From contig CAUYUJ010000199.1 in the NCBI GenBank assembly GCA_963575745.1, positions 62,001 to 116,926 on the forward strand: a stretch of 54,926 bases of DNA, in the 5' to 3' direction. The position numbers and the translations under genes were made by a program. Below, piece by piece: positions 3,764-47,880 of the stretch. The notes under the pieces were generated by a model. The model did not search any database and had not been told where the DNA came from. It worked only from the letters and a program-made list of their open reading frames with translations. The DNA comes from Prorocentrum cordatum. Its lineage: Eukaryota. Numbering within the stretch: position 1 is the first letter of the stretch; every line of letters begins with the position of its first letter.

Positions 3764-3795
<32 letters not shown>

Positions 3796-3804
3796 CCTCC
3801 TCCC

Positions 3805-3836
<32 letters not shown>

Positions 3837-3870
3837 CTCACTCCTCCGTCGTCGTCGCCGTCATCGTCGT
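3544..3870 (+). repeat. (GTC)n microsatellite, interrupted
   Basis: Long runs of gtcgtcgtc with point interruptions. Confidence 0.95.
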
Positions 3871-7632: not shown

Positions 7633-7842
7633 GGCCGGAGACGGCCGAACTGCGGCGGCTCTTCTCTGGTCGGAGCTTCGGATCTCGGGGTGAGGTCCGG
7701 GGGCGACGGCGACGACCAGGACGAGCCCGCAGGACGCCGAGGAGCGGGCCCCGGAGCCGGCCTACCAGCGCGGGGCCTGCCCGCGCAGGCGCCGGGCGCC
7801 CGACGCCGGGGCGAGGCGAGAGGGGCGCGCGCGGGCCTCCGC

Positions 7843-7940
7843 TCGGGAGACTCTCCATGGGATCCCCAGGGGATCCTATGGGATCCCCCCCCTGGGGTCC
7901 TATCCCCCCATGGGATTCCCCCCCATGCAGAGTCTCCCGA
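7843..7940. mobile_element. 98-bp MITE with 5-bp TSD
   Basis: TIR tcgggagactct/agagtctcccga; perfect TSD tccgc (7838-7842 and 7941-7945). Confidence 0.85.
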
Positions 7941-8642
7941 TCCGCGCGGGGCGCCCGCCTCGCGCCGCCGCGCGGTGCGGCAGCAGCCTCGCGGGTGGTT
8001 TCGTAGGTTCGAGCAGGGCGATCCCTGACCTCTCCCTCCCTCCCTCCCTCCTCCTCTCCTCCCTCCTCCTCTCCTCCCTCCCTCCCTCGATTTCGTAGGT
8101 ACGTCCTCTCCTCCCTCCCTCGTCCTCCACCTGTTCGTGGGTACAGACGGAAGCGGAGGAAGGGGATGGGGCGAGGAGGGAGGATGAGGAGGGAGGGTCG
8201 GCCACGCGCGAGGATGAGGAGGGAGGATAACGAGGAGGGCAATGAGGAGGAGGAGGAGGAGGAGGAGGAGGAGGAGGAGGAGGCAGGAGGAGGCAGGAGG
8301 AGGCAGGAGGAGGAGGAGGAGGAGGAGGAGGAGGAGGAGGGTGAGGAGGAGGAGGAGGAAGAGGAAGCAGGAGGAAGCCGAGGATGATGGGGGGAGGCAG
8401 AGGTAGAGGCAGAGGCACAGGAGGAGGATGAGGAACGATAGCCAGGTTTCGTCGGTTCGTAGGTTCGTAGGTTCGTCAGGGCTGCACCTGAGCGGTGTTG
8501 TTGTGGTGGTTTCGTGGGCCGTGTTCGTTCCGGTTTCGTTTTGCGGTAGAGGAGGGTTCGGGACGAAGGCGAGGGACAACGATCTCAAAACGAAAGCGAA
8601 AAGCACCGTTTAGGGTCAGCCCTGGGTTCGATGTCTGCCAAC

Positions 8643-8853
8643 TCGGCGGCGGGTATGGGGGGGAAGTGAGAAGGGGGAGGCCTTCGCAGCAGGTGGCCGG
8701 GCTTCTCAGAAGCCCGCTGGCCTTCTGAAGAGTTTTCTGTGTTTTTGGGGAAGGCTGAGCAGACTTCTCAGAGGGCCAGGGGACTTCCGAATCTTCTGAG
8801 AAGGCCTTCTCATTCTCGCTCACTTCCCCCCCCCCCCCCTCGCTCGCCGCCGA
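8643..8853. mobile_element. Palindromic MITE-like element (cttctcagaag family)
   Basis: TIR tcggcggcg...ggggggg / ccccccc...cgccgccga. Related copies at ~15478-15667, ~19400-19604 and ~20605-20762. TSD not resolved. Confidence 0.65.
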
Positions 8854-8984
8854 ATAATGGGAGCCTTGGGTTTCCCTGCAGTTAAGCCGAAGTTGGACCT
8901 CCTGCTTCTCCTCGCCTCTCCCGTTCCTCCCTCTCCTCGTTCTTCTCGCCTACCTCGTCAGGGGGCGAGACTGCTCCAAGTCTT

Positions 8985-9149
8985 TCAGAAGGGAAAAACA
9001 CAGAGACACAATTAATCGTCGATTCCCCAGAAAATATGGGAAAATATCGGAAGTGGAGGGGGAAGACGAAAACCCAAAACAACATATAGGAACATACGGG
9101 GAATCATTTTTTTTGTGTGTATTTATTTGCGTGTCTTGGGACCCCTTCA
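8985..9149. mobile_element. MITE family C (~165 bp), 5-bp TSD
   Basis: tcagaaggg...ccccttca with perfect TSD gtctt. Other copies: 14523-14686 (aaagg/aaaga), 30129-30291 (ttcac/ttcac), 51082-51231 (gctac/gcttt). Confidence 0.85.
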
Positions 9150-9475
9150 GTCTTGTCCAAACCCCGTCCCACATGTGTTCCAGGTCTGGTCCAGATCAGG
9201 CCCAAGTCGGACAGCGCCAGGCGCCACACAGGCTCCCATGGAACGGACACCGAATGCACGTCCTCGCAGTCCGTCTTTGGAGTGCATTCGCGTGCGACAG
9301 CGTCTGGCTATCAATGACAAAGCGCCGATCTAGCGTATGTGAGCGTCAGTTTGATGTCGGTTTGCTTCGGTCAGCGCTTACTCGCAGGAGCCACACGAGC
9401 CAGCAAGGTGACACTGTAGGTTCCGATGATTTGCCGCAGAAGCGTGGGACGCTCCAGGAATGACCTGGTCTTAAG

Positions 9476-9614
9476 AGTGGCATCGCTCGGACGTGTGCAT
9501 TTTTCTTTCTGCGAGGACCATCGAGGAGCATCCTTGATCATTTGGCGAAAAAACACGTACAATACCGGAAAAAAAAACAAAAACACAGGGAATGGACGTC
9601 CGAGCGATGGCCAG
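9476..9614. mobile_element. MITE family G (~135 bp), 4-bp TSD
   Basis: TIR core tggcatcgctcggacgt / acgtccgagcgatggcca; TSD taag. Copies at 35726-35858 (gtcg) and 36401-36532 (gccg); partial copy ~33920-34006. Confidence 0.85.
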
Positions 9615-10038
9615 TAAGTGTTCGAACCCAGAGATAGATCCGAGGCTCCGAAGAATTGGAGCAATCGGATTGTTGCCATTTTCGTTTCTGGGGGCTCCAA
9701 CGAGCCCCGGGACCGTCAGAAAACGACTCAAGATGAAAAGCCAGCCTAATGGGGAAGTTGTTCAGATCACAGGGGGGCACGGACCTTCTTGACACGACTA
9801 ACGAGGGGCTAGCAGGCCCGATTAATGGGCCATTGAGCTGGACAAGTATGGCTTAAGCCGAGAAATTCAGCTGAATGTAGTAGGACCGAGCCGAGTGAAG
9901 CAGGAGAGGACCAGACCGAAAGGTATCCTGCGCAGGCCCAGGGGCCCCGAAAAAAGGGCGCAAGGGTTGGGGAATTGCGGCGGCGGTAAAGCCAGGGCAG
10001 CTCAAGGACCCGTCTCTTCTGGAGCCCTCCTTCCTTCT

Positions 10039-10224
10039 CTCGGGTCGAGCGAAAGGGGGGGGGTGGGAAAGGGGGGACACGAAATCTGCTGCATGTAGCT
10101 GGTTTCGGCCCCACCGAGGGGCCCGTTCCTCGATACATAGCCGCCTCCGGCGCGGGGGAAAACAGCTTCGTGAGCTGATTCTCACCCCCCCCCTTTGCTA
10201 TCCCCCCCTTTCGCCTGGCCTGAT
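10039..10224. mobile_element. MITE (~190 bp), 3-bp TSD family
   Basis: TIR ctcgggtcg(a/g)gcgaaagggggg; TSD tct. Copies at 22337-22534 (tta) and 37176-37372 (agt); disrupted copy at 37650-~38225. Confidence 0.85.
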
Positions 10225-10431
10225 TCTTTTTTGCATGCAGGATTTGGTGAGGGGTTCCAGAGGTGGCGAGGAGGAGCTTCAGCGTCCGGAAATCTCGATC
10301 TTGGAAAGGGGAGGAGAGGGAGGGAGGGAAGGTAAGGGAGGAGGATGGGGGAGGGAGGTAGGGAGGGAGGAGGCGGAGGCGAGATAGAGGGAGAGAGGAA
10401 GGGAGGGAGGGGAGGAGAAAGGGGGCGAAGA

Positions 10432-10465
<34 letters not shown>

Positions 10466-11505
10466 TAGAGGCCAGGACCTCTCCTCTTCCCTTCCTGCTG
10501 AGCCGTGGACCTCATTTCCCTTGGACGCCCGAGATGAGTTTTGTGCCCGAGAAAGAATGTTGTCCAAAACCGACAGCGGCCGCTGTTCTGTCCGTCTTCG
10601 GCTGGCGGGTGCCCTCAACTGACCAACTCATCGAGAGCATTGGAGCGCCAGATGTCAGGGAAGCCGTGCATACTAGAGGACTAGGCAAAGGCAAAACCAG
10701 ATGTGCCTATTGGCACACTCGCGAGAGAGTGGAACATGTACAGCCAAGACGTTGAACTAAGCACCGCTCTGGGTTCGGAAGGGGTTCGCTGTTCTTCGGG
10801 TCCTTCCGTGGCTGTTCCTCTGTCCCTCCTCGTGCACCCGGGCGCTCATGGCGCCAAGAAGGGGCTTCGCTGCTAGGTTAGCGTTCCTTTTGCGGCAGCT
10901 TGACTGTACCGGCACACGTGCTTGCCATGGCCAGGGGGATGGGCAGGCAGGGACGGACGGGGGGGGAAGGAGCAGCCCAAACGGGGTCTGAGAGCGCATG
11001 CTGCCGAGGGGCCGCCGCGCCGAACCGCCGATGCATCGGCGATGCCGCTCGATGTGGGGAGCCTGATTTTCGCCTCGCCGAGGCGTCGGCGACGTGGCGC
11101 GAGCCTCCGACCCCGCCTGCTCGGACCCCATGCGGGAGGCCTCCACCGAGGGCCCGCACTCACGCGCCCACGTCTTCCCATCACGGGCCGCCTCAGGTGC
11201 TCGACAAGGGGGCCCGAGCACCGATCGCGAGGCCTGCACGGCTTCTGAGGCAGTGGGGGGCGAGCCGCATGCCAGCTGCAGAGAGCTGCTCGCTGCGCGC
11301 CCGCAGCCCGCGCCGCGGCTCTGGGGGTCTCCGCCAGGGCTGCGCACTCAGCAGGGGCTGCGTGCTGCACACGGGCGACTGGGTGTCTGCGCCGCGCGCC
11401 GGCGTGGATGCTGACGTCTAGTCCAGAGACGTCACGGGATACCAAATCCAGCATTTTTTCCGTCGCAGCGCTGCAGAGGCAGTCCGCACGCGCGCTCGAG
11501 CGCTG

Positions 11506-11681
11506 TTTCTTTAGTGCTTGGGGCATAATGGGTATTATAGCCCCCGGCAACCCCTCCCCCCTATAATGTAACGCCCCGGCACTGCCGCCGCGCGCACGGC
11601 GGGGGGGAGGCGCGACATTATAACCCCCCCCCTGGCCCCTCCCCGCCTATAATGTTTCTTATATCGCCGGCAATAAAGAAA
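11506..11681. mobile_element. Short inverted-repeat-bounded element
   Basis: tttctttagtgc ... gcaataaagaaa, plus internal tataatgt/acattata inverted pair. TSD not resolved. Confidence 0.5.
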
Positions 11682-12236
11682 CGCCGCGCTCCTCGAGCGG
11701 CCTGGGCAGCGCAAAGCGCGAACTCACCTGTGGCAGGACGTGGAAAGGAGAGGCGGAGCGGCCGCGGGGCGGGAGGAGGGAGGGAGAGCCGCGGAGCGGC
11801 CAGGGCCCCCTCGGTTCGTGTTCTGCTCGCAACGAGGGAGCAGCACACGGAGGGGGCCATGGGGTGCGTGCGTTCGGATGGGGCCCCCAGCTCGAACGGG
11901 AGGCCCCCCGCGGTCCGACAGCCCGCACCCATACGCATAGCCAGTCCTCCTCCCTCCGACCCTCCTGTGGGTATGGGTGTGTGTGTGTGTTGTCCGCTTG
12001 TCAATCATATTTGTCGAGGCTCGCTGAGGGGCAGCGAACGCGATTTGTGTTTCCGGGGCGACGGAGGGGGGGCAACGCTCGTAGGGTAAGAGCAAAACTG
12101 AGCAGCCCAATCGTTGGTAAGAGCAAAACTCAGATCCGAGCTTCTTGCGAATGGGGGTCGTAGGGATTGGCCTTGACGGATCAAGCGTGCAGGCCGAGCG
12201 TATTGGGATTTGGCCTTGGATCGGCACGAACGAAAT

Positions 12237-12418
12237 GGGTACGGAAAGAATGGGTACAATGGCCAACAGCGGTCCCTGTTCATTTTGAACAGGACTCGCT
12301 GTCGGTGTCGCCGCGGCCTGTGTACATTTGAGACAGACGGCCGCCTGCCCAACAGCGGCCGCTGTTGGTTTGGGACAACATTTGTTGTTGGGCATTGTGC
12401 GCATTTTTTCCGTACCCA
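12237..12418. mobile_element. Short inverted-repeat-bounded element
   Basis: tgggtacggaaagaatg ... cattttttccgtaccca; a related segment lies inverted at ~10555-10590. Confidence 0.55.
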
Positions 12419-13026
12419 GTTCGGGCGTCCAAATTGGAAACACTGCTGCCCCCCCCAGGGACCTCCAACGCGTCCTCTTCTGCAGCACCCTCCCGGGGGA
12501 GCAGGAAGCTTCCAGGATTGCGTGGGCACTGCCGCTCACGAGGGCGTGGTGGTGGTAGGAGCCCGTTCGGAGAGGATGCTGGGTGTCAGACCTGGGGGGG
12601 GGATGGATGGCGAGGGGCGGGAAATGGAGGACGAGGAGGGAGGATGAGGGAGTCGCACGGGGAGGACCAGGGAGGACGGGGAGAAACAGGAAGACGCAGG
12701 AGAAGGAGGAGGAGGAGGAGGAGGAGGAGGAGGTAGAGGACGAGGAGGCGGAGGAGGAGGAGGAGGAGGAGGAGGAGGACGAGGCGGAAGCCGAGGACGA
12801 GGAGCCAGAGATCGGGGACGAGCACGGTGACGAGCACGAAGGCGAGGAGGAGGATGAGGAGGAGGAGGTGCAGGATGTGGAGCGCGTTGCTGAGCAGGAG
12901 GACGAGGTAGGACGAGGTAGACACGGACGCGGGCGGCTCGTGCGGCCCCTGCCCCTCCTTGGCCACCTGCCACGTCGCCCGCTCCCCCCCCGCCCTGCGC
13001 GCGCACCCGGCCAGCCCCCCCGCCAG

Positions 13027-13070
13027 GCGCGAGGACAGCCCGGAGTACGCCCCGCTGCACCTCCAGGACG
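13027..13070 (+). CDS. Candidate short exon (REDSPEYAPLHLQD), unknown gene
   Basis: C-rich tract then cag|G acceptor, G|gc donor, G/C at every third codon position. Unique sequence between GGA tracts. No recognisable homology. Confidence 0.35.
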
Positions 13071-13368
13071 GCGCGGCGGCGGGCGAAGAAGGACGAGGGG
13101 GATGAGGGAGAGGAGGAGGAGGAGGAGGAGGAGGAGGAGGAGGAGGAGGAGGAGGAGGAGGAGGAGGAAAACCGCTGGGGGACAACTGGCCGCCGCGTCG
13201 TTCGGCCATCTGCGACCGCGGAGGTCCGCGCCGAGGCGGCCGAGGCGCGGACAAGAGGAGCAGCCCGAGTCCAGGAGGGGGCCCGAGGCTCCTCGGGCCC
13301 TTCCGCGTCAGGGGAGGCCGGGCACGCGAGAGGACCGTCGAGCAGTGGCGAAGCGTCCCGGCGTGCCT

Positions 13369-13702
13369 TAAAACGACGCGAAGATCGGGACAAAATCGGA
13401 TCGGGATAACTCGAAATCTCTGAGAATCGGCGGGTTTGGAGGATGTATTGGGCGCCGCGGCCGCTCCAGAGCGTTCCGGAACGCTCTGAGAGCGCTCCGG
13501 AACGCTCTGGAGCGATTTATCCCGATCCTAGCCCTGTTTTACATTCCTCGATACAGGGCCGCCTCCGGCGCCCGGAGGCGCCGGGGAAATCAGCTACGTG
13601 AGCTGCTTCTCAAACCCCCCCTTTTCGGGGGAGCGTAAGACCTGGGTTTGCCAGGACTCGGGTTCGCCATCGTTTTTTGACGACCGCGCCTCGGTCTCGG
13701 CC
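13369..13702. repeat. Near-identical copy of 37740-38072 (composite transposon fragment)
   Basis: About 333 bp with only ~3-4 visible differences. Inserted into a repeat starting cagtggcgaagcgtcc (13343; related copy at 15221). Confidence 0.9.
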
Positions 13703-14143
13703 TTGTTTCATGCCTGTAGGCCTACCAGGCAATGTTCTAAGACCCTCCTGTGGTCTGCACGAACTGCTCTCAGAACGTTTCTGGCCGGGGCTGCCTTGCT
13801 TCAACACATCGGGTCAGTGTTCTGAGAACACGGCTTGTGTTCTCAGAACGTGTTTGTTGGGGGTTCTAGGAGCGTGTCGTGGTAGGCCTGTAGAGATGCC
13901 GGACGGTCGGTCCCTGCTTCATCGCGAGAGAGCGGAGCATTGTCAGCCAAGACGCTGGCATCTATACGCCACCACCGTGCCAGATCAGGGCCATCCTGGG
14001 CCGTAGGATGGTGTGTAGACCCTCCGGGCTCGGCCAGGAGGGCGTATACACCATCCTGGGGCCCAGGATGGCCCTGGCATGGCACGGTGGTGGCGTACAG
14101 ATGCTTTCTGCGCAAGCCAAGACGCTGGTAGAAGGACCGCTTG

Positions 14144-14373
14144 TCAGAGACCCGAATCATCAGGGGTAACTCGGGTCAGGGCTAACTCGGGTTCGTTTTT
14201 CGGGAATCCGAACCCGAGTTGCCCCAGGCCCGAGTTACCCCGGATAACTCGGGCGTCCAGAGCCCCAAATCATCAGGGATAATTCGGGTCAGGGCTAACT
14301 CGGGTTCGTTTTTCGGGAATCCAAACCCGAGTTACCCCGGACCCGAGTTATCCCTGATAATTCGGGCGCCCAA
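14144..14373. mobile_element. Dimeric palindromic MITE family B, 5-bp TSD
   Basis: Two tandem ~113-bp self-complementary units (gggtaactcggg...cccgagttaccc); perfect TSD gcttg. Second copy at 29726-29955 with TSD tgtat. Confidence 0.85.
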
Positions 14374-14504
14374 GCTTGGGGCTCGGAGGAGGGGCTCGTC
14401 GATGCTCCTCAGGCCCCTCCGTGGTCGCCCCCCTGGCGCTCCTCGTGCGCCCAGGCGCTGCTGGCGCCCAGAAGCGGCTTCTCCCCCGATTCAGCGTTCC
14501 TGAT

Positions 14505-15046
14505 TATCGGGGGCGGAAAAGGTCAGGAGGAGAAAAAAACACACAGGCACAAGTCATCGTCGGTCCCTAAGAAAATATGGTAAAATATGGGAATTGGGCG
14601 GGAAGACAAAAACCCAGAAAATGTATGAAAATATGGGGAATCGTTTTATTTGTGTGTATTTATTTGTGTGTCCCAAGGCCCCTTCAAAAGAGGGTGGTGA
14701 TGACTAGAGGGGGGTGGATATCCTGGCGCCGGCCATGATATCTCCGCAGATTTCATGGCGCCTCTGCTTATTTCATTACGCCCCAGGCCCCCCCGCTGGG
14801 CCGCGCACATGCCGCCAGTCATGATTTGCACCCCCCCCTCTTGGACACCCCCCTCTTGGCCGCTCCCGAGATTGGGGGAACAAGAAGTGACATAATCATA
14901 ACAACTCGGAGGTTCGCGCGGATTTCTCGGATCGGCGCTGGACCCCCCTCCCTGGCGCGCGGAGCGCGCCAGGGGCCCCCGCGCCGATCCGAAAAGTCCG
15001 CGCGGACCTCCGAGTTTTTATGTTTATGTCATTTTTTGTTCCTCTA
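14505..15046. mobile_element. Three-level nest: fold-back MITE > family D > family C
   Basis: Outer element ta..ggggaacaa...ttgttcctcta with TSD ctgat (14500-14504, 15047-15051) and hairpin body 14875-15046. Family D at 14507-14869 (TSD gatta/gattg). Family C at 14523-14686. Confidence 0.8.
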
Positions 15047-19879: not shown

Positions 19880-19979
19880 NNNNNNNNNNNNNNNNNNNNN
19901 NNNNNNNNNNNNNNNNNNNNNNNNNNNNNNNNNNNNNNNNNNNNNNNNNNNNNNNNNNNNNNNNNNNNNNNNNNNNNNN
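19880..19979. other. Assembly gap (100 N)
   Basis: Run of exactly 100 N, a typical scaffold placeholder. Confidence 0.99.
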
Positions 19980-23764: not shown

Positions 23765-25057
23765 TTCCCAAGCATCCCATGTTGAGTTGGGTCCTCGTTG
23801 TGAAGAGACGCTCCCCGCGTCTCCTCCCCTTCTCTCATCCTCCTCCCCCGTCTCCATCCTCCCGTCACCCCCCCTCTCTTTGGCACACCCCTCACACGGC
23901 ACGTTGCGCATCCCCATAGGGAGCTCCACCGAAGGCCCCAGTGGCATGATTCGCATGCCGCCCCCCCTGCGCGTTTGCACACCCCTCGTACGTTTCGTGG
24001 CCCCATTGGGAGCTCCACCGAAGGTCCCAGTTGCATGATTCGCATGCGTTTCCCCCGCTCAGTACAACGTCTCGTGGCCCCATGGTGGGGCCACCGAAGG
24101 CCCCAGCAGCGGTGTCCGTATGCGTTCCCCGAACCCAGTGCAGCTTCGTGGCCCCATATGGAGCCTCACCGAAGGCCCTAGTGCCGGTGTCCGCATGCAT
24201 TTCCCCCCACCCAGAACAAAGTCTCGTGGCCCAACAGGTAGCTCCACCGAAAGCCCTAGTGGCGGTGTCCGCAGAAGTTTCCCCAACCCCGCGTTTCGTG
24301 GCCCCATAGGGAGCCCCAACGAAGGCCCCAGGGAGCCCCAACGAAGGCCCCAACGAAGGCCCGCTCCACCGAAGGCCCCAGTGGCGGTGTGCGCATGTTT
24401 TTTTCTCCACCCAGTATAGCGCTCCGTGGCCCCATAGGGAGCTCCACCAGAGGCCCTTGGCGGTGTTCGCATGCGTCCCACCCACCCAGCACAGCGCTTC
24501 GTGGCACCATGGGGAGCTCCACCGAAGGCCGAAGTGGCGCTGTCCGCATGCGTTTCCCCCACCCAGTACAACGTCTCGTGGCCCCACAGGTAGCTCCACC
24601 GAAGGCCCCAGCGGCGGTGCCCGCATGCGTTTCTCTTACCCAGCACAGCGCTTCGTGGTCACATGGGGAGCTCCACCGAAGGCCCGAGTTGCGCTGTTCG
24701 CATGCGTCTCCCCCACCCAGTACAGCGTTTTGTGGTCCCACAGGGAGCTCCACCGAGCGCCTCAGTGTAGGTTTTTGCATGCGTCCACCCCGCCCAGTAC
24801 AGCGCTTCGTGGCCCCATAAGAAGACCTCAGTGGCGACGTTCGCATTGCGGCCCCGCTCCATTTCGGCACCCCTCACACGTTTCGTGGCCCAATGTGGAG
24901 CGCCACCGGAGGCCCCAATGTCTGCGCCCGCATGCGTCCCCGCCCCATTTCGACACACCATTTGCAAGCTTCGGGGCCCCGTAAAGAGATCCACCGACGG
25001 CAATGCCCACAACGGCGATGCTCACAGCTGCTTATGGTTGGGCCCTTCGCCAGGATA
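23765..25057 (+). mobile_element. Satellite-carrying Helentron/DINE-1-like element, copy 2 (~77-bp monomers)
   Basis: 5' ttcccaagcatcc...gttgggtcctcg, pyrimidine tract, array with gtggc core at 24501, 24578, 24655 (77-bp spacing), 3' atggttgggcccttcgccaggata followed by a T-run. Confidence 0.7.
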
Positions 25058-26529: not shown

Positions 26530-27725
26530 CATAAGGAGACGGAATGGAGGAGGAAGGCGGATGAGCGAGGAGGAAGGTGGGGAGGAGAGTAGAAGGATGC
26601 ACGAAGGAAAGAGGAAGGATGAGGGGAGGAGGAGAAAAAGATGAGGTGGGTAACGGAGGATGGAAGCGTAATGAGGGACGCGGAAGGGAGGGCCAGGAGG
26701 ATGGAGGAGACAAGAGGAGGGAGGAGGAGGAGCACGAGGCCGGAGGGACAGAGGGGCGGAGGGACAGAGGGGCGGAGGAGGAGGAGGAGGAGGAGGAGGA
26801 GGAGGAGGAGGAGGAGGAGGAGGAGGAGGAGGAGAGGAAGAGAGGGAGGATAGGAAGAGAGGAAGGAGAGGAGAGGAAAGAGAAAGAAGAGAAGAGAAGA
26901 GAGGAGGAGAGGCAGGAAAACGAGGAAGAGGAGGAGGAGGAGGAGCAGAGAGGAGATGAGAGGAGGAGGAGGAGCGCCTCAGGGATAGAGGAGAAGCGAA
27001 TAGGGAGAGGGGAGAGGGAGGCAGGAGGGACGGGGGAGGGTTGAGGAGGAGGAGGATGGGGAGGAGGAGGAGAGGAGGAGGGAGGAGAGAGGAGGAGGAG
27101 GAGAGGAGGAGGAGGAGGAGGAGAGAGAGGAGGAGGAGGGAGAGGAGGAGGAGGAGGGGGAGGGGGGGAGCAGAAGGGGGAGGAGAGGAAAAGGAGGATG
27201 AGGGGGAGGGGGGGGTGAGGAGGAGAGCGCCTCAGGGGAGGAAGAGAAGCGAAGAGGGAGGAGGGGGAGAGGGAGCAGGAGGGACGGGGAGAGGTTGGAG
27301 GAGGAGGAGGAAGGGGAGGAGGAGAGGAGGAGGAGGAGGAGGAAGGGGAGGAGGAGGAGAGAGAGAAGGAGAGAGGAGGAGGAGGAGGAGGGGGAAGGGG
27401 GAGGTGCGAGAAGAGGAGGAGAGGAGGAGAGGAGAGAGAGGAGAGGAGGAGGAGAGGAGGAGATCGAGAGCAGGAGGAGGCAGGAGGAGCAGGAGGAGGA
27501 GAGGAGGAGGAGCGGGGGAGCAGGAGGAGGAGGAGGAGGAGGAGGAGGAGAGGAGGAGGAGGAGAGTCGAGGAGGAGGAGAGGAGAGGAGAGGAAGGAGA
27601 GGAGGAGGAGGGGAGGGGGAGGGGGGAGGGGAGGGGGAGGGGAGGTAGGAAGGAGGAGCAGGAGGAGCTTGTCGGCGGAGGAGGAGGAGGCCGAAGGATG
27701 ACGCGACGGAACACGAGGAGGAGGC
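26530..27725 (+). repeat. ~1.2-kb polypurine (GGA/GAGA) low-complexity tract
   Basis: Almost purely G/A; internal ~75-bp duplication at ~26972-27045 and ~27223-27298. Confidence 0.95.
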
Positions 27726-29725: not shown

Positions 29726-29955
29726 TCAGAGCTCCGAATCATCCGGGGTAACTCGGGTCAGGGCTAACTCGGGCTCGCTTTTCGGGAATCCAAACCCGAG
29801 TTACCCCTGACCCGAGTTACCCCGGATATTTCGGGCGTCCAGAGCCCCGAATCATCAGGGGTAACTCGGGTCAGGGCTAACTCGGGTTCGTTCTTCGGGA
29901 ACCCAAACCCGAGTTACCCCGGACCCGAGTTACCCCGGATAACTCGGGCGCCCAG
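29726..29955. mobile_element. Dimeric palindromic MITE family B copy
   Basis: Matches 14144-14373; perfect TSD tgtat. Confidence 0.85.
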
Positions 29956-32296: not shown

Positions 32297-32872
32297 CACT
32301 GAAGTTAGGTCGGGCCTGTACCTCTACAGGGGTATTGTTTGTGTCTTTGTTCGTCTATTTTTATTTTTTCTCGTCCACCCCCTTGTAGGGGGACAGGCCC
32401 CACCCAACACTAAAGGACCGCCGACTAAGAGGGCTCTCCACGGAAGTAGCACGTTTCTTCGCACCCTCATCGATCGCCCAGCCCAGGAAGCAGGGAGCGA
32501 GGTATGCCAGGAAGGAAACGGGTCCTCCGGGGAAGCCGGGTCTCTCGTTTTCTGCTTACCTTGTGCCTGTGGGCCTCCTGGGCCCTCCACTGGCCCAGGG
32601 GCTGCCCGTCACGGGCGTCCCAGTTGACAGATCCTCTGCCTTGCCCCCGTTTCGGTTCCGTGGGGTCGACGCAGAAGGCGGCTTTCCCTTGCGGTTTCCA
32701 TGTCGTTTGGTCCCCCGCGCCACGGCGGGAGCTCACCGAACCCGGAGTGTGTTGCTCGAGAGAGGGGTGCGCCCGAAGTGTTTGCTGGTCGGTGCCTTCC
32801 GGGTCCGGGTCCTCGGTCGGTGCTGTCAAATATTGTTTTCGTGAACATTTGGCATCCTTCGGTACTGTTTAG

Positions 32873-33905
32873 TTAATCGCTTCGCTCATTCCGCCGGCCC
32901 TGGAACCTCTCTATAGGGCCTCTGGGAGGCCTCTTGGGGACCTCTTGGGAGTCTCTTGGGTCTCCTTGGCGGCGTCTTGGGGGCGCCCAGGGCCTCTTGG
33001 GGGGCTTTTGGGCAAGAGCGACGTGGACATGCAGTTCGTGGACGCGGAGCAGGCCGCCGTGAAGGTGGCCAAGGTCGACGTCGGCGCAGAGCAGGAGGGT
33101 AAGCTCATGATCGACGGGGGCTGCTCTGGAGCCAACCTGGCCGAGGGCACGGGCGAGGCCGGTGGGCCGGCGTACGCCGACTGCGACTCGGAGGCCGGCT
33201 TGGAGGGCGGCGTCGAGGAGATGAGCGACGAGAAGGAAGCGAGCGTGGCCATGCAGCGCGGGTGGTGGGCCGCCAGGGCCAGAATTTCTCGGGCTTGGCT
33301 GGGCACGAAGGCCTCGGAGAGCAATATGATGGCGGAGCTCGAGGCGCAGGGCGTCGAGGGCTTCGCGGCGTCCGAAGGCAAGGGCATCGACACGCAGGAG
33401 CTGCGGTGCTTGCTGACGGGCAAGGTACTGCAGGGTCCGAGGTGGGCTCCGCGGGGGCTGCCGCCCGACCCTGGAGAGGGCCGCCTGTTCGGAGATCCTG
33501 AGCCGAAAGCTAGGAGGCGCCGAGCGGGCAAGAGCAAGATGGCGGAGCCTTGAGGCCAGACCGCGCCGCGGCGTGCCTCGTGGTTTCGTGTGGCTCGGAG
33601 CGGGCTGGCCGCCGCAGGCGCCGAAGTGCGCCCAACGGGCCTTGCGGCGGAATCCGCTGGAGGTCTGAGGGGGGGGGGAAATCTCTTGTGGCGGGAAGGG
33701 GGGGTAGTCGATTGCGGCTCCCTCCTCGGAGGCCATGATCCTCGTGAGGGGTGTCGAAAAATGGCCCTCCCCTGGAGTGCTCTGGGGGCTTCTCCAGGGA
33801 ATGGCCGGGCGCCCCCATGGGCCGCTCCGCGCGCGCGAGCTAGAAATATTGTTAACCACTTACTGGGGATCTTAGCACGCCTCTGGCCCGTTGGGCCGGC
33901 GAATC
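32873..33905 (-). mobile_element. Helentron/HINE-like element carrying a ~690-bp insert
   Basis: Ends ttaatcgcttcgctcat..cgccggccc and ggcccgttgggccggcgaat. Colinear with the shorter copy at 47366-47735 except for the insert at 33013-~33700. Confidence 0.75.
33029..33553 (+). CDS. Intronless 174-aa ORF or coding fragment of unknown function, acidic N-terminal half, inside a mobile element
   Basis: ATG at 33029, frame open from the insert boundary to TGA at 33551-33553. Strong G/C third-position bias (gac gtg gac atg cag ttc gtg gac gcg gag cag gcc...). Non-repetitive protein MQFVDAEQAAVKVAKVDV...KSKMAEP. Confidence 0.5.
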   Translation: MQFVDAEQAAVKVAKVDVGAEQEGKLMIDGGCSGANLAEGTGEAGGPAYADCDSEAGLEGGVEEMSDEKEASVAMQRGWWAARARISRAWLGTKASESNMMAELEAQGVEGFAASEGKGIDTQELRCLLTGKVLQGPRWAPRGLPPDPGEGRLFGDPEPKARRRRAGKSKMAEP

Positions 33906-35436
33906 TTGTTCCCGGCAAGGACCATCGAGGAGCATGTTGGGTCATATCGCGAGAAACTCACGCGCGAAACCTAAACGTGCACGGGGAATGGACGTCCGAG
34001 CGATGGCGACGCCTGCGCCTCCCTAGAAATCTGGAGCCTCCATTCTCGAGCCCTGCACCTTGAGCCTCGAATCGGCCCAGAGCCGATCGGGCCCCGACCC
34101 ACGACCGATCTGGCCTGGTGGGGGACGCATCCCGCGCCTCCTTCCAACATGAACCCGCATATCACAACGACGTTGTGTGTCCACGCGGCGTTGTTTCTTC
34201 AGTCCGGCCTCCAGGACCCGTTTTCGGGCCCAGGGCCCATCACATATTGATTCGTGACAGGATAGCAACACCAAGGGAAGAAGCCCGAAGCTTTAGGGCC
34301 GTTCATTGGAAAAGACATCGTCGGATGTCTTGTTTGGATTCAATCGAGGATCGAGGAGAGAGAGTTGCAGGTTTGCATGTCTTTGGTATTTCTTGGATTT
34401 GTAGGTGGCTCCTCGTCGTCACAGTTGGATTCCCATATAAATCTCAATGAATTCGCACTCTTGGGGAGGTCTGGGGGTCGATGGTTGCAGGCAGGAAGGT
34501 CTAAAAGGTTTGGCATCAGGGAAAGGGATACTGCGGAAATTTGGTTCTGATATGTTCTGTTCAAGGGTGTCCCGGGGCCCTTCCCGGCGCCGGGGGTCTG
34601 TGTTTTTCAATGCGGTTTCCGACTCTCTGCTCACTATCTGGAGATTGCCATGCACTTGAGCAGGACTGTCGCCTCTAAGGCCTGGCTTCTGGCCGGCCTG
34701 CTTGTCCTGGAACGAAGATGTGGCTTGGATGGTGAACTCAAGTTTCAGCTTGTTGGAAACTCCGCTGCTGGGGCTGGCGCTCAGTAGCCCAGCGCCGCTG
34801 GCCCCAGCACAAACCCCGAGTCTGAGGACGAGCAGGAGCTCTCATTGCCCAGTTTTTCGGGCCAGCAGTTTTTGCCACCAATCGCTTGTGTTGGACCATG
34901 CCATCGGCCATCGCTGTGGCCTGCCAGGAGTTCCCGTTGAGACTAGCCCCGCCGAGCCTCACTGGCCCCTGACTGCCACCGATGCTGCCCGTGCGCAACC
35001 CCGAGACCCATTGGGGGTCTGAGACCAGCTGGCGACCGTTCGGACAGTGTGGAGGGGTACTGTCATTCAGAGGAGGGAAAGGTACGATCCGATACTGCTA
35101 CCCCTGTCTCGTTTTCGCTTTTTTGGGTCTCATGGGAGGCCCTCGTCGCCACGGCTGGGTTCGCCTTTCAGTCCGCTCAGGAAGCACCCTTGGCGAGGTC
35201 TCATTCAGGCCCTCATGTTGACGCGCGCGCCTCTTCCTCTGCTTGGCACGCGCAGCCGCTTCAACTGCAGCGCGCCTCTCTCGGGAGCGCTTTGGCGGCT
35301 CACGGTCTCCCTCTGCTCGCGCGCCGTACGGGCGCAGGTCGCGTGAGTTGGGCTGGGGGCCTCGGTGCCCAGAGCCACCCCCCCACTTCGGGGGCAGTCA
35401 CGGCCAGCCTCGGAGAGGAGCCTCTGTAGCGGGGAG

Positions 35437-35571: not shown

Positions 35572-35966
35572 GAAGAGCGGGTCCTGGAGTTTTTACTGGC
35601 CCTCGGGGAAAGCCCTGGGGGTCCAGGGCCCGCTCCGCTCTGGACCCGTGGCCTTCTTGCCGAGCCTGCGGCCCTGGGTCCCGGGCGCGCTCTGTACGTG
35701 CCTTCGATTTCGCGAATTCCAGTCGCTTGGCATCGCTCGGACGCGTGCATTCTTCTTTCGCTGAGGGCCCTCGAGGAGCATCCCTGATCATTTGGCGAAG
35801 AAAAGCCACACACGAGACCGAAAAAAACACAGGGAATGGACGTCCGAGCGATGGCCAGGTCGGGCGTTGCCCGTGGAGGCTCCCGCGACCTCCAGAGCTC
35901 CAGAGAGAGCTCCCCGCGAGGACCAGAGGGCCCCCAGGGGCTCCACAACGGAGAGACAAGCTCTGG

Positions 35967-36350: not shown

Positions 36351-36979
36351 GTGAGAGGTGCGAGGGCAGGGTGCTCGGCCACCGCGCGCAGGAGCGGCCG
36401 CTTGGCATCGTTCGGACGTGTGCGTGTTTCCTTCGGCGAGGACCATCGAGGAGCATCCTTGATCATTTTGCGAAGAAATCGCGCACGAAACCGAACACAA
36501 ACACAGGGAATGGACGTCCGAACGACGGCCAGGCCGGTCGCCGGGGCCACCTTCGAGAGTTTCGGAGCACTTTTTGGGGCGTTCCCGTCGGTTCCAGGAG
36601 GTGTTGCTGCCAAGGGTTCGACCTAAGCTGTGTGTTGGCGGTTTCGTGCACCGTCTCGTGTCGCAGTAAAGGCGCAGCGAAGACGAAGAGACGAGTGCGG
36701 CAACAAGTAAACGAAACAACAACGGAGCACGCCGCTCAGATCGAGCCCAGTTCTTGCCTCGGGATGCGTTCCAGCATTACCAGCCTGGAACATATCCCTA
36801 CCCCTATGCTTGACATCACCTCACCTCGATGCCGATCCCAAGGATTCCCTCAGCTTGTGGGGGCCTGTCCCTGAGATTGTCCTCGCGTTTTGCTCGCCCA
36901 TCTTAGGGATAGGGGTACCTTCGAGGCTTCTTACAGCAGCTGCGCCCTGCTCCTGGATCGTCGCGAAGGGCCGCCAGAG

Positions 36980-40881: not shown

Positions 40882-41978
40882 TTTTTCCCAACCATCCTGT
40901 GGTGTTGGGTCCTCGTTTTGAAGAGACGTCGCCCCGCGTTCTCCTCCTCCTCCTCCTCATCCTCCTCCTCCTCTCCTCTCCTCCTCCCCCTCTCCTCCTC
41001 CCTCCTCCCTGCGTTTCACCCACCCACTGCAGCGTTTCGTGGCCCCATAAGGAGCTCCACCGAAGGCCCCAGTGGCAGCGTTCGCATGGCGGCCTCGGGC
41101 AATTTCGGCACACCCCTCACGAGGATCGTGGCCCCATAGGGAGCTCGACCGAAGGCCCCAGTGGCAGCGTTCGCATGGCGGCCTCGGGCCATTTCGGCAC
41201 ACCTCTCACGAGGATCGTGGCCCCATAGGGAGCTCGACCGAAGGCTCCAGTGGCAGCGTTCGCATAGCGGCCTCGGGCCATTTCGGCACACCCCTCACGG
41301 GGATCGTGGCCCCATAGGGAGCTCGACCGAAGGCCCCAGTGGCAGCGTTCGCATGGCGGCCTCGGGCCATTTCGGCACACCTCTCACGAGGATCGTAGCG
41401 GCCCCCGTGGCCCCACCCATAGGGAGCTCGACCGAAGGCCCCAGTGGCAGCGTTTGCATGGCGGTCTCGGGCAATTTCGGCACACCCCTCACGAGGATCG
41501 TGGCCCCATAGGGAGCTCCACGGGAGGCTCCAGTGGCAGGGTTCGCATGGCGGCCTCGGGCCATTTCGGCACACCTCTCACGAGGATCGTGGCCCCATAG
41601 GGAGCTCCGCCGAAGGCGCCACTGGCCAGGTTCGCACGGCGGCCTCGGGCAATTTCGGCTCACGAGCATCGTGGCCCCATAGGGAGCTCGACCGAAGGCC
41701 CCAGTGGCAGGGTTCGCATAGCGGCCTCGGGCCATTTCGGCACACCCCTCACGAGGATCGTGGCCCCATAGGGAGCTCCACCAGAGGCTCCAGTGGCAGG
41801 GTTCGCATGGCGGCCTCGGGCCATTTCGGCACACCTCTCACGAGGATCGTGGCCCCATAGGGAGCTCCGCCGAAGGCGCCACTGGCAGCGTTCGCACGGC
41901 GGCCTCGGGCCATTTCGGCACACCCCTCACGAGGATCGTGGCCCCATAGTGAACTCGACCGAAGGCCCCAGTGGCAGC
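40882..41978 (+). mobile_element. Satellite-carrying Helentron/DINE-1-like element, copy 3 (89-bp monomers, 3' end missing)
   Basis: 5' tttttcccaaccatcctgtggtgttggg, (CCT)n tract, ~11 monomers (gtggcccc at 41128 and 41217, 89-bp spacing). Confidence 0.7.
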
Positions 41979-46454: not shown

Positions 46455-47880
46455 ACGTTTTGCGTGATTTCGGCCCCGCTTTATGTCCCACGGGGGAGCC
46501 TCCAGGGGGCAGGACATGTCATTCGTCGCGTTCAGACTGTGGGGATGTCGCTTGCGGTTTCATGTTTCGGCCGCGCCGACTTCTCCCTGCTGGTGGCTCA
46601 AGGCTCACCGCGACGTAGCAAAACTGGCATTTGGGCGCCCCACGGGGTAGTCGGCAGGGGGCAGGAGATTGCATTGGTCGCGCTCAGATTGCGGGGACGT
46701 TTCATTCGGTTTGCGTGTTTCGACCGCGCCGGCTTCTCTCTGTAAGTGGCAACGTGCCCACCGCGATGTAGCACGCGTGGCAGTTTGGCACCCCAAACGG
46801 GGGCCGCCTAGGGGGAGGACATTCCACTCTTCGCGCTCAGGTTGTGGGGATGTCTCAGGCGTTTTGCGTGTTTCGGCCCCGCAGACTCATGTATTTTGGT
46901 GGTCCACTGCTCACCGCGATGTATCAGACCTGGTAATCGGGCACCCCACGGAGAAGCCGCCAGGGGGCAGGACGTTCCATTAGTCGCGCTCGGATTGTGG
47001 GGAAGTCTCATGCGGTTTGTTTGTTTCGGCCGCGCAGGTTTGTCTTTGTTGGTGCTTTAATGCTCACCGCGATATAGCAGTCGTGGCAGTTGGGCTCACC
47101 GAGTGGGAGCCGTCCGGGGGTAGGACACTCCATTCTTAACGCTCAGGTTGTGGGGGTGTTGCAAGTGTTTTGCGCGTTCCGGCGCTATGCTCTCAGGTTT
47201 TTCATCGTTCGTGGTCCAATGCTCACCGCGATATAGCAGGCGTGGCGTGGAATTTGGGCACCTTGAGGGGGTAGCCGCCAGTGGTGGGGACCTCCCCAAT
47301 TCGCGGCCAGATTGCAGGGATGTCTTCGGCGGTTTGCGTGGTTTCGGCCCCGCTTACTTGTTTATTTAATCGCTTCGCTCATGCCGCCGGCCCTGGAGCC
47401 CTCTTTAGGGCCTCTTGGGGGCCTCTTGGGGACCTCTTGGGAGTCTCTTGGGGCTCCTTGGCGGCGTTTTGGAGGCCCCCAGGGCCTCTTGGGGGGCTCT
47501 TGGGGGTAGTCGATTGCGGCTCCCCCCTCGGAGGCCACGATCCTCGTGAGGGGTGTCGAAAAATACCCTCCCCTGGAGTGGTCTGGTGGCTTCTCCCGGG
47601 CTTCTCTCGGGACCTTGCCGGGGTACTTTTCGTCCGGGGGCCCCCAGGGGCCGCTCCGCGCGCGCGAACTAGACATATTGTTAACAAGTTACCGGAGATC
47701 TTAGCACGCCTCTGGCCCGTTGGGCCGGCGAATTTTTGGTGGTCCAATGCTCCCTGCATCATAGTAGGTAGGACTGGCACTCGGGCACTCCAAAGGGGAG
47801 TCGCCAGGAGCTGGACATTCCATTGGTCGCGCTCAGATTGTGGGAACGTTTCAAGCGGTTTGCTTGGTGCGGCGCCCCGA
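46455..47880. repeat. Diverged ~152-bp tandem repeat, interrupted by the 47366-47735 element
   Basis: cccacggggagccgccagggggcaggacattcc-like units at ~46488, 46640, 46790, 46943, 47096, 47260 and 47790. Dispersed units at ~39700, 48890, 49310 and 49470. Confidence 0.8.
47366..47735 (-). mobile_element. Helentron/HINE-like element, empty copy
   Basis: Same ends as 32873-33905. Inserted in a T-rich position of the 152-bp repeat with no TSD (compare uninterrupted gtattttggtggtccac at 46891). Confidence 0.75.

What the first reader, a model, noticed from the sequence alone, without database searches (positions are those of the whole stretch)
32873..33905. Filled versus empty Helentron-like element: candidate capture of a protein-coding fragment
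Seen: the 47366-47735 copy reads ...ggggggctcttggg|ggtagtcgattgcggc, whereas this copy has ~690 bp (33013-~33700) at that junction. The insert includes the most convincing codon-biased ORF in the window (33029-33553, 174 aa, intronless). On the minus strand the element has a 5' subTIR cgccggccc with adjacent partial inverted repeat, a 3' subTIR gggccggcg followed by a GCGAAGC mini-hairpin, a T-rich target and no TSD. Known: this is Helentron/DINE-1 architecture, and rolling-circle elements can capture gene fragments. Inference: a host exon or cDNA fragment is carried antisense to the element.
Basis: partly seen in the sequence, partly recalled or inferred. Interest (0 to 1): 0.72.

Follow-up and report, generated by a model that had tools for sequence, protein, structure and literature searches.

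The report
Gene fragment inside a Helitron-like transposon
One copy of a very abundant small rolling-circle-type transposon in a dinoflagellate genome carries the tail end of a host gene, a known kind of event that mainly warns that some annotated genes here are transposon passengers.

Summary
Two copies of one repeat lie at about 32870-33904 and 47363-47733. The first is split by about 669 bp (33013-33681) that occurs nowhere else in the window.

Each copy sits precisely in a T-rich site of another repeat, and neither has a target duplication.

In contigs of four public runs the arms are extremely abundant. The arms are joined directly there, so the empty form is the family norm.

The insert is the last 178 codons, the stop and about 125 nt of 3'UTR of an uncharacterised multicopy gene family annotated in Prorocentrum cordatum. 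Its N-terminal 135-170 codons are absent. Its ATG is an isoleucine in the relatives. Listed differences are 6 synonymous to 14 non-synonymous.

So a gene fragment inside a Helitron2/Helentron-type non-autonomous element is supported. Rolling-circle "capture" is not shown. I found no second filled copy, and no poly(A), duplication or spliced-leader relic. Whether the parents have introns could not be checked, because no genome is held.

The T|T target lies on the strand opposite to the canonical end asymmetry, so "antisense" is undecided.

This is a new member of a known kind. The scan noted Helitron2-like families elsewhere in this genome, but no capture.

The parts
32870..33012 (-). Left arm of the filled element (its 3' part in the structural orientation): terminus, GCGAAGC mini-hairpin, 3' subTIR, then 11-bp repeat units. 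The start is uncertain within 32870-32873.
   Evidence: 92% to 47359-47504; summed depth jumps from 13.5 (bin 32802-32868) to 12,467 (bin 32869-32935) in X1; the left flank ends at 32872 against the host repeat.
32879..32885 (-). GCGAAGC mini-hairpin motif, 6 nt downstream of the 3' subTIR on the minus strand
   Evidence: ViennaRNA does not predict it. The special stability of this heptamer is recalled, not tested.
32892..32900 (.). Subterminal inverted repeat, left copy (CGCCGGCCC on +)
   Evidence: I15: 9 nt, 100% complementary to 33893-33901. The same pair is in the empty copy (I6).
32918..33012 (.). Central tandem repeat of ~11-bp CCTCTTGGGGG-type units. The insert lies at its inner edge.
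   Evidence: direct reading. TRF reports the array in the empty copy at 47400-47506, period 11, 10 copies. Many loose ends and variable joints here in run contigs.
33013..33681 (+). Acquired host gene fragment, ~669 bp, unique in the window. The right edge is uncertain within 33675-33681.
   Evidence: self-hit only; tblastn of P0003 and P0006 starts at 33014; contigs of X2, X3 and X4 stop matching at 33013, and an X1 contig stops matching at 33675.
33014..33553 (+). Coding part: the last 178 codons and the stop of a member of an uncharacterised multicopy family. The ATG at 33029 is an Ile in relatives.
   Evidence: 92% identity to P0003 over aligned columns. GC1/2/3 0.69/0.52/0.87.
33554..33678 (+). 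3'UTR-derived part, ending in a G run. It contains GCCCAACGGGCC (33630-33641), identical to the element's terminal hairpin.
   Evidence: one 375-nt X1 contig covers 33330-33675 with 10 differences, so this part is contiguous with the coding end elsewhere..
33682..33904 (-). Right arm of the filled element (its 5' part in the structural orientation). It lacks a ~28-bp stretch that the empty copy and the family have near 33799-33805.
   Evidence: joints 33009->33700 and 33012->33697, loose ends at 33799/33805, and 50 diverse loose ends behind 33904.
33885..33901 (-). 5' subTIR (33893-33901) nested in the hairpin GGCCC-AAC-GGGCC, 3 nt from the terminus
   Evidence: exact 17-mer only at 33885 and 47714.
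47363..47733 (-). Empty copy of the same family, inserted in a 153-bp satellite
33905..34009 (+). Right part of the ~130-bp abundant repeat into which the filled copy inserted. Its left part is 32851-32869.
   Evidence: three uninterrupted copies at 9478-9611, 35728-35855 and 36403-36535. Very high depth.

Best explanation
WHAT IT IS. 32870-33904 is one copy of a very abundant, non-coding, Helitron2/Helentron-type (HINE/DINE-1-like) element that inserted precisely, without target duplication, into a T run of another repeat. After the family had its normal ~370-bp form, this lineage acquired about 669 bp at the inner edge of its unstable central 11-bp repeat array.

WHAT THE INSERT IS. It is a 5'-truncated piece of an expressed-looking, uncharacterised, multicopy dinoflagellate gene, probably 3'-truncated as well. 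It holds the last 178 codons, the stop and about 125 nt of 3'UTR, with no interruption relative to the relatives' proteins.

HOW IT GOT THERE (inferred). Most likely a break in the repeat array was patched by copying from the gene, or from its cDNA, by template switching. This is the "filler DNA" route proposed for Helitron captures. The right junction lies in a G run present in both partners. I see no sign that the chimeric element has multiplied since.

WHAT IT DOES (inferred). The fragment is a passenger, not a working gene. It lacks the family's conserved N-terminal domain, and its start codon is a lineage-specific change.

SHOWN: the two copies, precise insertion, empty form as the norm, homology and truncation of the fragment.
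INFERRED: the repair mechanism, single-copy status and lack of function.
For: ELEMENT.
- Arms are collinear with the empty copy.
- Both insertions are precise against paralogous empty sites.
- subTIRs, hairpins and central repeats are present.
- In X1 contigs the arms sum to about 1,800-15,000 depth against 5-13 over the insert. No family-majority difference is listed in the terminal ~40 nt on either side (41 rows of that table were not shown).

EMPTY FORM IS THE NORM.
- Joint 33009->33700 in X1 (depth 299) and X3 (depth 83).
- Joints 33001->33697 and 33012->33697 with 17 and 16 other letters between. This also shows the spot varies within the family.

FRAGMENT.
- Near-length search: 4 of 1,136 candidates pass. 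These are the window's own protein, P0003 (80% identity, 99% cover), P0004 and P0005.
- Longer proteins: 2 of 6,758 candidates pass, P0006 and P0007.
- tblastn puts only residues 135-290 of P0003 and 170-312 of P0006 in the window, starting at 33014. Nothing of their N-termini is anywhere in the 55 kb.
- Contigs of three runs stop matching at 33013. An X1 contig runs 33330-33675 and then goes on for 29 letters that do not fit the window.

PARENT FAMILY.
- 115 cluster representatives at E<=1e-3. About 107 match only the N-terminal ~100 residues.
- Members sit on 1.2-2.0 kb contigs that barely exceed their coding length, and in the P. cordatum annotation.

PASSENGER STATUS.
- The residue at the ATG is I in P0003, P0006 and P0008.
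- 6 synonymous against 14 non-synonymous among the 20 listed differences inside the ORF.
- No other protein at 90% identity or more: the cluster has 1 member on 1 contig.

AGAINST RETROPOSITION. No poly(A) and no flanking duplication. The unit to the right of the insert occurs in insert-free family members. No spliced-leader relic at up to 3 mismatches.
Against: - No genome is held. Four collection scans with the element terminus or the protein profile found nothing. The number of filled copies is therefore judged only from annotated proteins and from truncated tables of contigs of runs that do not cover this locus' unique flanks. A second filled copy could easily have been missed, which would favour true capture plus transposition.
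- The fragment is uninterrupted over 537 coding bases. P. cordatum genes average 9.8 introns per 2,798-bp CDS and 83.7% have introns (PMC10666404, Table 2, passage seen). By my rough Poisson estimate only about 3 in 10 random genes would lack an intron there, so an RNA template is quite possible.
- The reading frame is still open with the native stop, and the collection holds the ORF as a protein from an NCBI source. Expression or function is not excluded.
- Microhomology at the left junction cannot be read without the parent's DNA.
- Arm divergence from the family majority (at least ~3%) and insert divergence from the nearest contigs (23 of 592, 3.9%) are similar. This is also what acquisition before the last transposition would give.
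Confidence: 0.5

Rival explanations
1. True Helitron-type capture. The fragment entered the element before its last transposition, and the chimeric element then moved by rolling-circle transposition to this site, so other filled copies exist.
For: - The filled copy has intact termini and a precise, duplication-free insertion of its own.
- Arm and insert divergences are similar.
- Helentrons and a proto-Helentron are reported to carry and amplify gene fragments: 8 Culex copies with histone fragments and 25 Phytophthora copies (PMC4067079, passages seen).
Against: - No second filled copy was found. The only proteins at 90% identity or more to the ORF are the window's own.
- No listed contig of 4 runs bridges arm and insert, while empty joints are seen in 3 of the 4 runs. 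Both searches are incomplete.
Confidence: 0.27
2. LINE-mediated retrocopy. A 5'-truncated processed mRNA of the parent gene was reverse-transcribed into a nick in the element's repeat array.
For: - The piece is 5'-truncated, carries the 3'UTR and is uninterrupted.
- Introns are dense in P. cordatum genes.
- Three A's follow the G run at 33679-33681.
- Retroposition is reported as common in dinoflagellates (reference 56 of PMC10666404, seen only as a citation).
Against: - There is no poly(A) beyond 3 A's.
- There is no target duplication. The repeat unit right of the insert is family sequence (table 5c).
- There is no spliced-leader relic.
- An X1 contig goes on 29 letters past the breakpoint. 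Its letters were not shown, so a tail cannot be excluded.
Confidence: 0.12
3. The filled form is the ancestral element and the 370-bp form is an internal-deletion derivative.
For: Non-autonomous Helentron derivatives arise by internal deletion (PMC4067079, passages seen).
Against: - The fragment's relatives continue upstream for 135-170 codons that are not in the element.
- Contigs diverge from the window at both insert edges.
- Empty joints have depth 299 and 83, against about 2-6 for insert-like contigs in the same runs.
- The insert encodes no Rep, helicase or any Pfam domain.
Confidence: 0.03
4. Artefact or coincidence. Either a resident exon lies between two independent partial repeats, or the assembly is chimeric.
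For: The assembly has gaps (100 N at 19880-19979).
Against: - The two arms are exactly complementary halves of the empty copy, in the same orientation.
- Their outer flanks abut on one host repeat. Two independent fragments or a misjoin would not give this.
Confidence: 0.04

Closest known systems
Helentron-Cq-32A of Culex quinquefasciatus carrying histone H4/H15 fragments, and the Phytophthora proto-Helentron carrying a PITG_05761 fragment (Thomas et al. 2014, PMC4067079; passages seen)
   Same: An HLE2-type rolling-circle element with an internal piece of a host gene that is 76-84% identical to a parent elsewhere. Here the piece is about 80% identical in protein to annotated relatives and 95-97% in DNA to run contigs.
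   Different: Those chimeras are amplified (8 and 25 copies) and some fragments carry stops or frameshifts. Here only one filled copy is known, the carrier is a 370-bp non-autonomous element, the frame is intact, and no autonomous partner could be sought.
HINEs / DINE-1 (non-autonomous Helentrons; PMC4067079, passages seen)
   Same: Subterminal inverted repeats, with the one near one end nested in a short inverted repeat. A small palindrome between the other subTIR and the terminus. Central tandem repeats. T-rich target, no duplication, very high copy number.
   Different: The subTIR is 9 nt here (12-15 there). The distance from the 3' subTIR to the terminus is about 19-22 nt (38-60 there). 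The T|T target is on the strand opposite to that asymmetry.
Helitron2 non-autonomous elements such as Helitron-1N1_CRe of Chlamydomonas (Bao and Jurka 2013, PMC3627910; passages seen)
   Same: ATIRs of 8-15 bp. A 5' hairpin involving the 5' ATIR. The 3' ATIR lies 20-30 bp from the end, upstream of a hairpin. Insertion after a T run before T/C, without duplication.
   Different: In the orientation that gives 'T run | T/C', this element's ends are the mirror image of the Helitron2 scheme.
HLE2-reverse (FoHeli3-5 of Fusarium) and proto-Helentron (PMC11417382, passages seen; PMC5148889, passages seen)
   Same: [quoted passage not shown] This is what the element shows if its polarity is taken from the T|T target (plus strand).
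   Different: Those are 9-11 kb autonomous elements with 12-16 nt repeats, and no insertion preference was established for FoHeli3-5. Relatedness cannot be tested without a transposase.

Membership tests
HLE2 (Helitron2/Helentron) non-autonomous elements | Short asymmetric terminal/subterminal inverted repeats (8-15 bp), one of them 0-4 nt from an end | tested here: met
   9-nt perfect pair in both copies. The 33893-33901 copy lies 3 nt from the terminus at 33904.
HLE2 (Helitron2/Helentron) non-autonomous elements | Hairpin at that end involving the ATIR | tested here: met
   GGCCC-AAC-GGGCC is the MFE and centroid fold in both copies. It is only weakly better than shuffles (z -1.84 and -1.17).
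HLE2 (Helitron2/Helentron) non-autonomous elements | The other ATIR is subterminal (20-60 nt from the end) and followed by a palindrome | tested here: inconclusive
   GGGCCGGCG, then 6 nt, then GCGAAGC, then about 6-9 nt to the end. The 2-bp-stem mini-hairpin is not predicted by the folding program. The distance is at the low edge of the published range.
HLE2 (Helitron2/Helentron) non-autonomous elements | No target-site duplication | tested here: met
   Two paralogous empty sites: the 153-bp satellite and the ~130-bp host repeat.
HLE2 (Helitron2/Helentron) non-autonomous elements | Insertion between T and T (or T run and T/C) in the element's own orientation | tested here: inconclusive
   The T run | T/C target is met on the + strand at both sites, and flanks of family members begin with TT. 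The canonical end asymmetry is on the - strand.
HLE2 (Helitron2/Helentron) non-autonomous elements | Autonomous partner with Rep/helicase (with or without endonuclease) sharing the termini | not testable with these tools
   No genome is held. None of 66 long open frames of the window has a Rep or helicase domain.
Helitron/Helentron gene capture (transduplication) | Internal fragment homologous to a host gene that resides elsewhere | tested here: met
   relatives on four other P. cordatum contigs. Only the C-terminal part is in the window.
Helitron/Helentron gene capture (transduplication) | The chimeric element is present at two or more independent loci, that is, it was mobilised after capture | tested here: inconclusive
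   None was found among proteins or listed contigs of 4 runs. The assembly itself could not be searched.
Processed retrocopy (LINE-mediated) | Poly(A) tail and flanking target-site duplication | tested here: not met
   Only AAA after a G run. The unit on the right is family sequence, not a duplication.
Processed retrocopy (LINE-mediated) | Lacks introns that the parent gene has, or carries a spliced-leader relic | tested here: inconclusive
   No spliced-leader relic at the 5' junction. The parents' genomic structure could not be obtained.

The most novel reading that the evidence does not exclude
The capture was sequence-directed. About 30-50 nt before the right breakpoint, the parent gene's 3'UTR carries a 12-mer identical to the element's terminal hairpin (33630-33641). 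Three nucleotides further on lies a 9-mer identical to the sequence at the element's other subTIR (33645-53). The transposition or repair machinery could have mistaken this host sequence for an element end and so picked up the adjoining gene tail. If general, terminus mimics in host UTRs would predict which genes Helitron-type elements capture.
Probability: 0.05. Interest if true: 0.6.

Novelty: new member of a known kind. Interest (0 to 1): 0.3.

Why it matters
Gene-fragment acquisition by Helitron-type elements is well known in plants, bats, mosquitoes and oomycetes. This is a clean filled/empty example in a dinoflagellate, a group whose Helitron-like repeats I did not see described in the passages I read from three full-text searches.

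Practically, the fragment is held as a protein in a public collection. It therefore illustrates how transposon passengers can inflate gene counts in a genome annotated with about 86,000 genes (number recalled). It also shows how coding tails of a fast-diversifying gene family can be scattered.

The family's ends are the mirror image of the canonical Helitron2 scheme relative to the T|T target. That would be worth settling once an autonomous partner is found.

Tried and rejected
WHOLE-GENOME ROUTE. No genome is held.

COLLECTION SCANS, ALL EMPTY.
- Protein profile in metagenome contigs (590 pattern matches, 0 confirmed).
- Protein profile in viral contigs (81 pattern matches, 0 confirmed).
- The 30-nt terminus pattern in metagenome contigs, genome contigs and viral contigs (0 each).

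SEQUENCING RUNS. No RNA holder was listed, and no run holds half of the words or more. Expression is therefore untested, and parts without cover say nothing.

FUNCTION OF THE FRAGMENT AND ITS FAMILY.
- Pfam gives nothing for the ORF or for the two antisense frames.
- For the relatives, nothing reaches the curated cut-off in P0003, P0005, P0006 or P0007. Among 12 further family members, only an MCM6_C match in P0046 passes its cut-off. The Con-6 match in P0099 also reaches its cut-off, but with no single matched stretch, so I discount it.
- ESM Atlas: best score 0.80, below the 0.9 lead level.
- AlphaFold2 of the fragment with 7 aligned sequences: mean pLDDT 47.8, pTM 0.20, one long helix. I ran no fold search, because a low-confidence model gives meaningless matches.

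OTHER NEGATIVE CHECKS.
- Spliced-leader relic at the left junction: rejected. The T-rich letters there belong to the arm, which matches the empty copy.
- The 3'UTR hairpin around 33609-33650 folds no better than shuffles (z 0.04).
- Rfam and tRNA scans of the window: 0 hits.
- Earlier scan notes: no look-alike of the element or the insert and no note on capture.

TECHNICAL MISSES.
- MAFFT of the two copies misaligned the left arm.
- A regex for satellite junctions and my first excision coordinates were wrong and were redone.
Full report
1. SETTING

The window has 56-67% G+C and one 100-N gap. It has no tRNA or Rfam hit. None of 66 long open frames has a credible Pfam domain: two weak hits lie in a tandem array. 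No whole genome is held for the window. The nearest proteins are annotated as Prorocentrum cordatum. Earlier notes of this scan on other pieces of the same genome also call it a dinoflagellate and describe many Helitron2-like families. None of them concerns this element, this insert or any capture.

2. THE OBSERVATION

blastn of the window against itself pairs:
- 32866-33012 with 47359-47504 (91.8% over 147);
- 33701-33907 with 47503-47736 (80% over 235, including a ~28-bp gap).

33013-33700 hits only itself. MAFFT misplaced the left arm, so I rely on BLAST and on reading.

Both copies carry the 9-nt inverted pair CGCCGGCCC/GGGCCGGCG.
- One member lies 3 nt from the end at 33904/47733, nested in the hairpin GGCCC-AAC-GGGCC. 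That hairpin is the MFE fold in both copies, with z of only -1.84 and -1.17.
- The other member is followed after 6 nt by GCGAAGC and then 6-9 nt to the end.
- The combined motif occurs exactly only at these two sites.
- GCGAAGC alone occurs 22 times in the window against 13.6 expected (2 of 100 shuffles reach this), 16 of them on the minus strand.
- The empty copy holds ten 11-bp repeat units.

3. BOTH COPIES ARE PRECISE INSERTIONS

The empty copy lies in a 153-bp satellite. Removing 47366-47733 leaves a unit junction that lines up with the uninterrupted junctions, with at most one extra T.

The filled copy lies in a ~130-bp repeat that has three uninterrupted copies in the window. Aligned separately, its left flank ends at column 29 and its right flank begins at column 30 of that repeat.

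So there is no target duplication. On the plus strand both targets read TGTTT(A) | (T/C)TT.

4. WHAT THE RUN CONTIGS ADD (Logan contigs of four coded runs, 80% likeness)

None of these runs covers the unique flanks, so they are not this locus.
- In X1 the arms sum to 12,467, 6,012, 1,828, 2,162 and 8,438 depth per bin, against 5-13 over the insert. The tool warns that depth is not copy number. I use it only to say that the arms belong to a very abundant family and the insert does not.
- Fifty loose ends with low agreement (0.37) begin behind 33904, most with T's. This fixes that terminus.
- Depth jumps at 32868/32869, which fixes the other terminus to within about 3 nt.
- Contigs join 33009 directly to 33700 in X1 (depth 299) and X3 (depth 83).
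- Two other contigs join 33001 or 33012 to 33697 with 17 or 16 other letters between.

The empty form is therefore the family norm, and the spot is length-variable within the family. The 16 letters resemble window 33682-33697 (12 of 16 by my count). That stretch is thus element sequence, not insert and not a target duplication. No family-majority difference is listed within about 40 nt of either terminus, but 41 rows of that table were not shown.

5. THE INSERT IS A GENE TAIL

The frame 33014-33550 has GC1/2/3 of 0.69/0.52/0.87. Length alone is worthless here (71 frames of 200 aa or more).

Protein searches:
- Near-length: 4 of 1,136 candidates pass. These are the window's own 162-aa protein, P0003 (290 aa; 80% identity over 99% of the query), P0004 and P0005.
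- Longer: 2 of 6,758 candidates pass, P0006 (378 aa) and P0007 (445 aa).

P0003, P0005, P0006 and its cluster mate P0008 are P. cordatum proteins on four different contigs.

tblastn places only P0003 residues 135-290 and P0006 residues 170-312 in the window, starting at 33014. Their N-terminal 135-170 residues match nothing in the 55 kb. The stop is at the family's native position. The methionine at 33029 is an isoleucine in P0003, P0006 and P0008.

Contigs of X2, X3 and X4 stop matching at 33013. Two of them go on for 164 and 29 letters that do not fit. I infer the reading of record coordinates on the minus strand from the 30-nt overlap of records 25-27. One 375-nt X1 contig covers 33330-33675 with 10 differences and then has 29 unlike letters. 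The ~125 nt after the stop therefore belong with the gene elsewhere, and the fragment ends in a G run at about 33675-33681.

6. THE PARENT FAMILY

phmmer of P0007 against 1.84 billion representatives gives 115 hits at E<=1e-3 (37 at 1e-10, 3 at 1e-30). About 107 match only the first ~100 residues. The C-terminal part present in the window recurs in just P0005, P0010 and the window's own protein.

Ten members looked up lie either in the P. cordatum annotation or on 0.6-2.0 kb ENA, JGI or Logan contigs. The contigs that carry the longer proteins (1.2-2.0 kb) barely exceed the coding length, which looks like transcripts; that is an inference.

No function emerged:
- no Pfam family above its cut-off except MCM6_C in P0046 and a Con-6 match in P0099 with no single matched stretch, which I discount;
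- Atlas best score 0.80;
- AlphaFold2 mean pLDDT 47.8, so I ran no fold search.

7. IS THE FRAGMENT ALIVE?

Of 61 differences between the window and run contigs over the 2-kb stretch, the tool listed 40. Twenty of those fall in the ORF: 6 synonymous and 14 non-synonymous, at codon positions 7/5/8. This is close to the neutral expectation, but it mixes lineages and is a partial list.

The fragment lacks the conserved N-terminal domain and has a non-native start. The collection nevertheless holds it as a protein from an NCBI source. My reading is that it is a passenger annotated as a gene. That is an inference, and expression could not be tested (one search lists no RNA holder).

8. MECHANISM

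Ancestral interior is excluded by sections 4 and 5. Two independent partial repeats or a misjoin are made very unlikely by the complementary arms and the abutting outer flanks.

Classical retroposition lacks its marks. There is no poly(A) beyond AAA, no duplication, and no spliced-leader relic (the leader motif is recalled).

What remains is insertion of a copied patch at a break in the unstable repeat array. The template was the gene's DNA or its cDNA. The patch entered either before the element's last move (capture in the strict sense) or afterwards in situ.

- For in situ: I found no second filled copy. The window's protein forms a cluster of one member on one contig, and no listed contig bridges arm and insert.
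- For the strict-capture rival: both searches are shallow.
- For a cDNA template: P. cordatum genes average 9.8 introns per 2,798-bp CDS, and 83.7% have introns (PMC10666404, Table 2 passage). By a rough Poisson estimate of mine, only about 0.29 of genes would lack an intron over 537 coding bases.

I put 0.50 on a one-off patch, 0.27 on capture followed by transposition, 0.12 on LINE-type retroposition, and the rest on minor readings.

9. COMPARISON WITH KNOWN FAMILIES

The passages I read give these criteria:
- Helitron2: ATIRs of 8-15 bp; the 5' one 0-2 bp from the end and part of a 5' hairpin; the 3' one 20-30 bp from the end, upstream of a hairpin; insertion between TTTT and T/C without duplication (PMC3627910).
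- Helentrons/HINEs/DINE-1: 12-15-bp subTIRs 2-4 nt from the 5' end and 38-60 nt from the 3' end, a 3' palindrome, central repeats or microsatellites, a TT target, and known carriage of gene fragments (PMC4067079).

The element meets these structural features on its minus strand, with a short (9-nt) repeat and a short 3' distance. Its T|T(C) target, however, is on the plus strand. In that polarity the stem-loop lies upstream of the left repeat, as described for "HLE2-reverse" and proto-Helentron (PMC11417382; PMC5148889).

Without a transposase the polarity is open. So is the question of whether the fragment is sense or antisense. I file the element as HLE2-like by architecture, with membership not proven.

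10. NOVELTY

Gene fragments in Helitron-type elements are established, so this is a new member of a known kind.

Three full-text searches brought up no description of such elements or captures in dinoflagellates among the listings and passages I saw:
- Helitron, dinoflagellate, Prorocentrum;
- Helitron2, asymmetrical terminal inverted repeats;
- Helitron, Symbiodinium, dinoflagellate genome, transposable elements.

PMC12130899 mentions helitron-derived introners, but only in fungi in the passages shown. The P. cordatum genome paper has 0 occurrences of "Helitron". Supplements were not opened. This is weak evidence that nothing is in print.

Noticed in passing
window 33630-33653 (compare 33885-33901 and 32888-32896): The insert's 3'UTR part holds a 12-mer identical to the element's terminal hairpin (blastn-short E 0.023; an exact copy occurs only 3 times in the window). 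Three nt further on lies a 9-mer identical to the sequence at the other subTIR. Both are in the polarity opposite to the host element. This could be chance, an old mini-element in the parent's UTR, or a terminus mimic.
   Followed up: partly
window 32851-32869 + 33905-34009; copies at 9478-9611, 35728-35855, 36403-36535: A ~130-bp repeat beginning GGCATCG... with a central T run. It is extremely abundant in run contigs (summed depth up to about 15,000 in X1) and serves as the target of the filled copy. Its nature is unknown.
   Followed up: partly
window 33731-33767 versus 41037-41978 (also arrays at 4694-6491 and 23868-24819): A 31-37-nt stretch of the element's right arm is 84-90% identical, on the opposite strand, to part of each unit of an 89/178-bp satellite. 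By eye, related ~77-90-bp satellites occur at two other places, on one or the other strand. Element core and satellite may share a module.
   Followed up: no
window 46487-47870: A 153-bp satellite of about 9 units hosts the empty copy exactly at a unit junction.
   Followed up: partly
whole window: GCGAAGC occurs 22 times against 13.6 expected (2 of 100 shuffles reach this), 16 of them on the minus strand. Earlier notes on this genome report one-strand mini-hairpin motifs in giant transposons.
   Followed up: no
window 33442-33490: In runs X2 and X4 (one coded organism) a ~48-nt stretch of the ORF has depth of about 260-360, against 5-13 for the rest. Well-agreeing loose ends lie on both sides. 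A short part of the coding tail resembles something abundant in that organism.
   Followed up: no
window 14145-14372 and 29727-29955: Two loci each hold two tandem copies of the same 113-bp unit, rich in CCCGAGTTACCCC-type inverted motifs. This is probably another small mobile element.
   Followed up: no
window 33122-33193 versus P0003: P0003 lacks 21 residues that the window, P0006 and P0008 have. In the window the 63 nt begin GC and end AG, followed by G. The P0003 gene model may therefore have spliced out an in-frame stretch as a GC-AG intron.
   Followed up: no
window 54058-54926 and 26695-27690: Long trinucleotide arrays: (AGT)n of 290 units at 98% match running off the window's end, and an impure (AGG)n of about 1 kb.
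   Followed up: no
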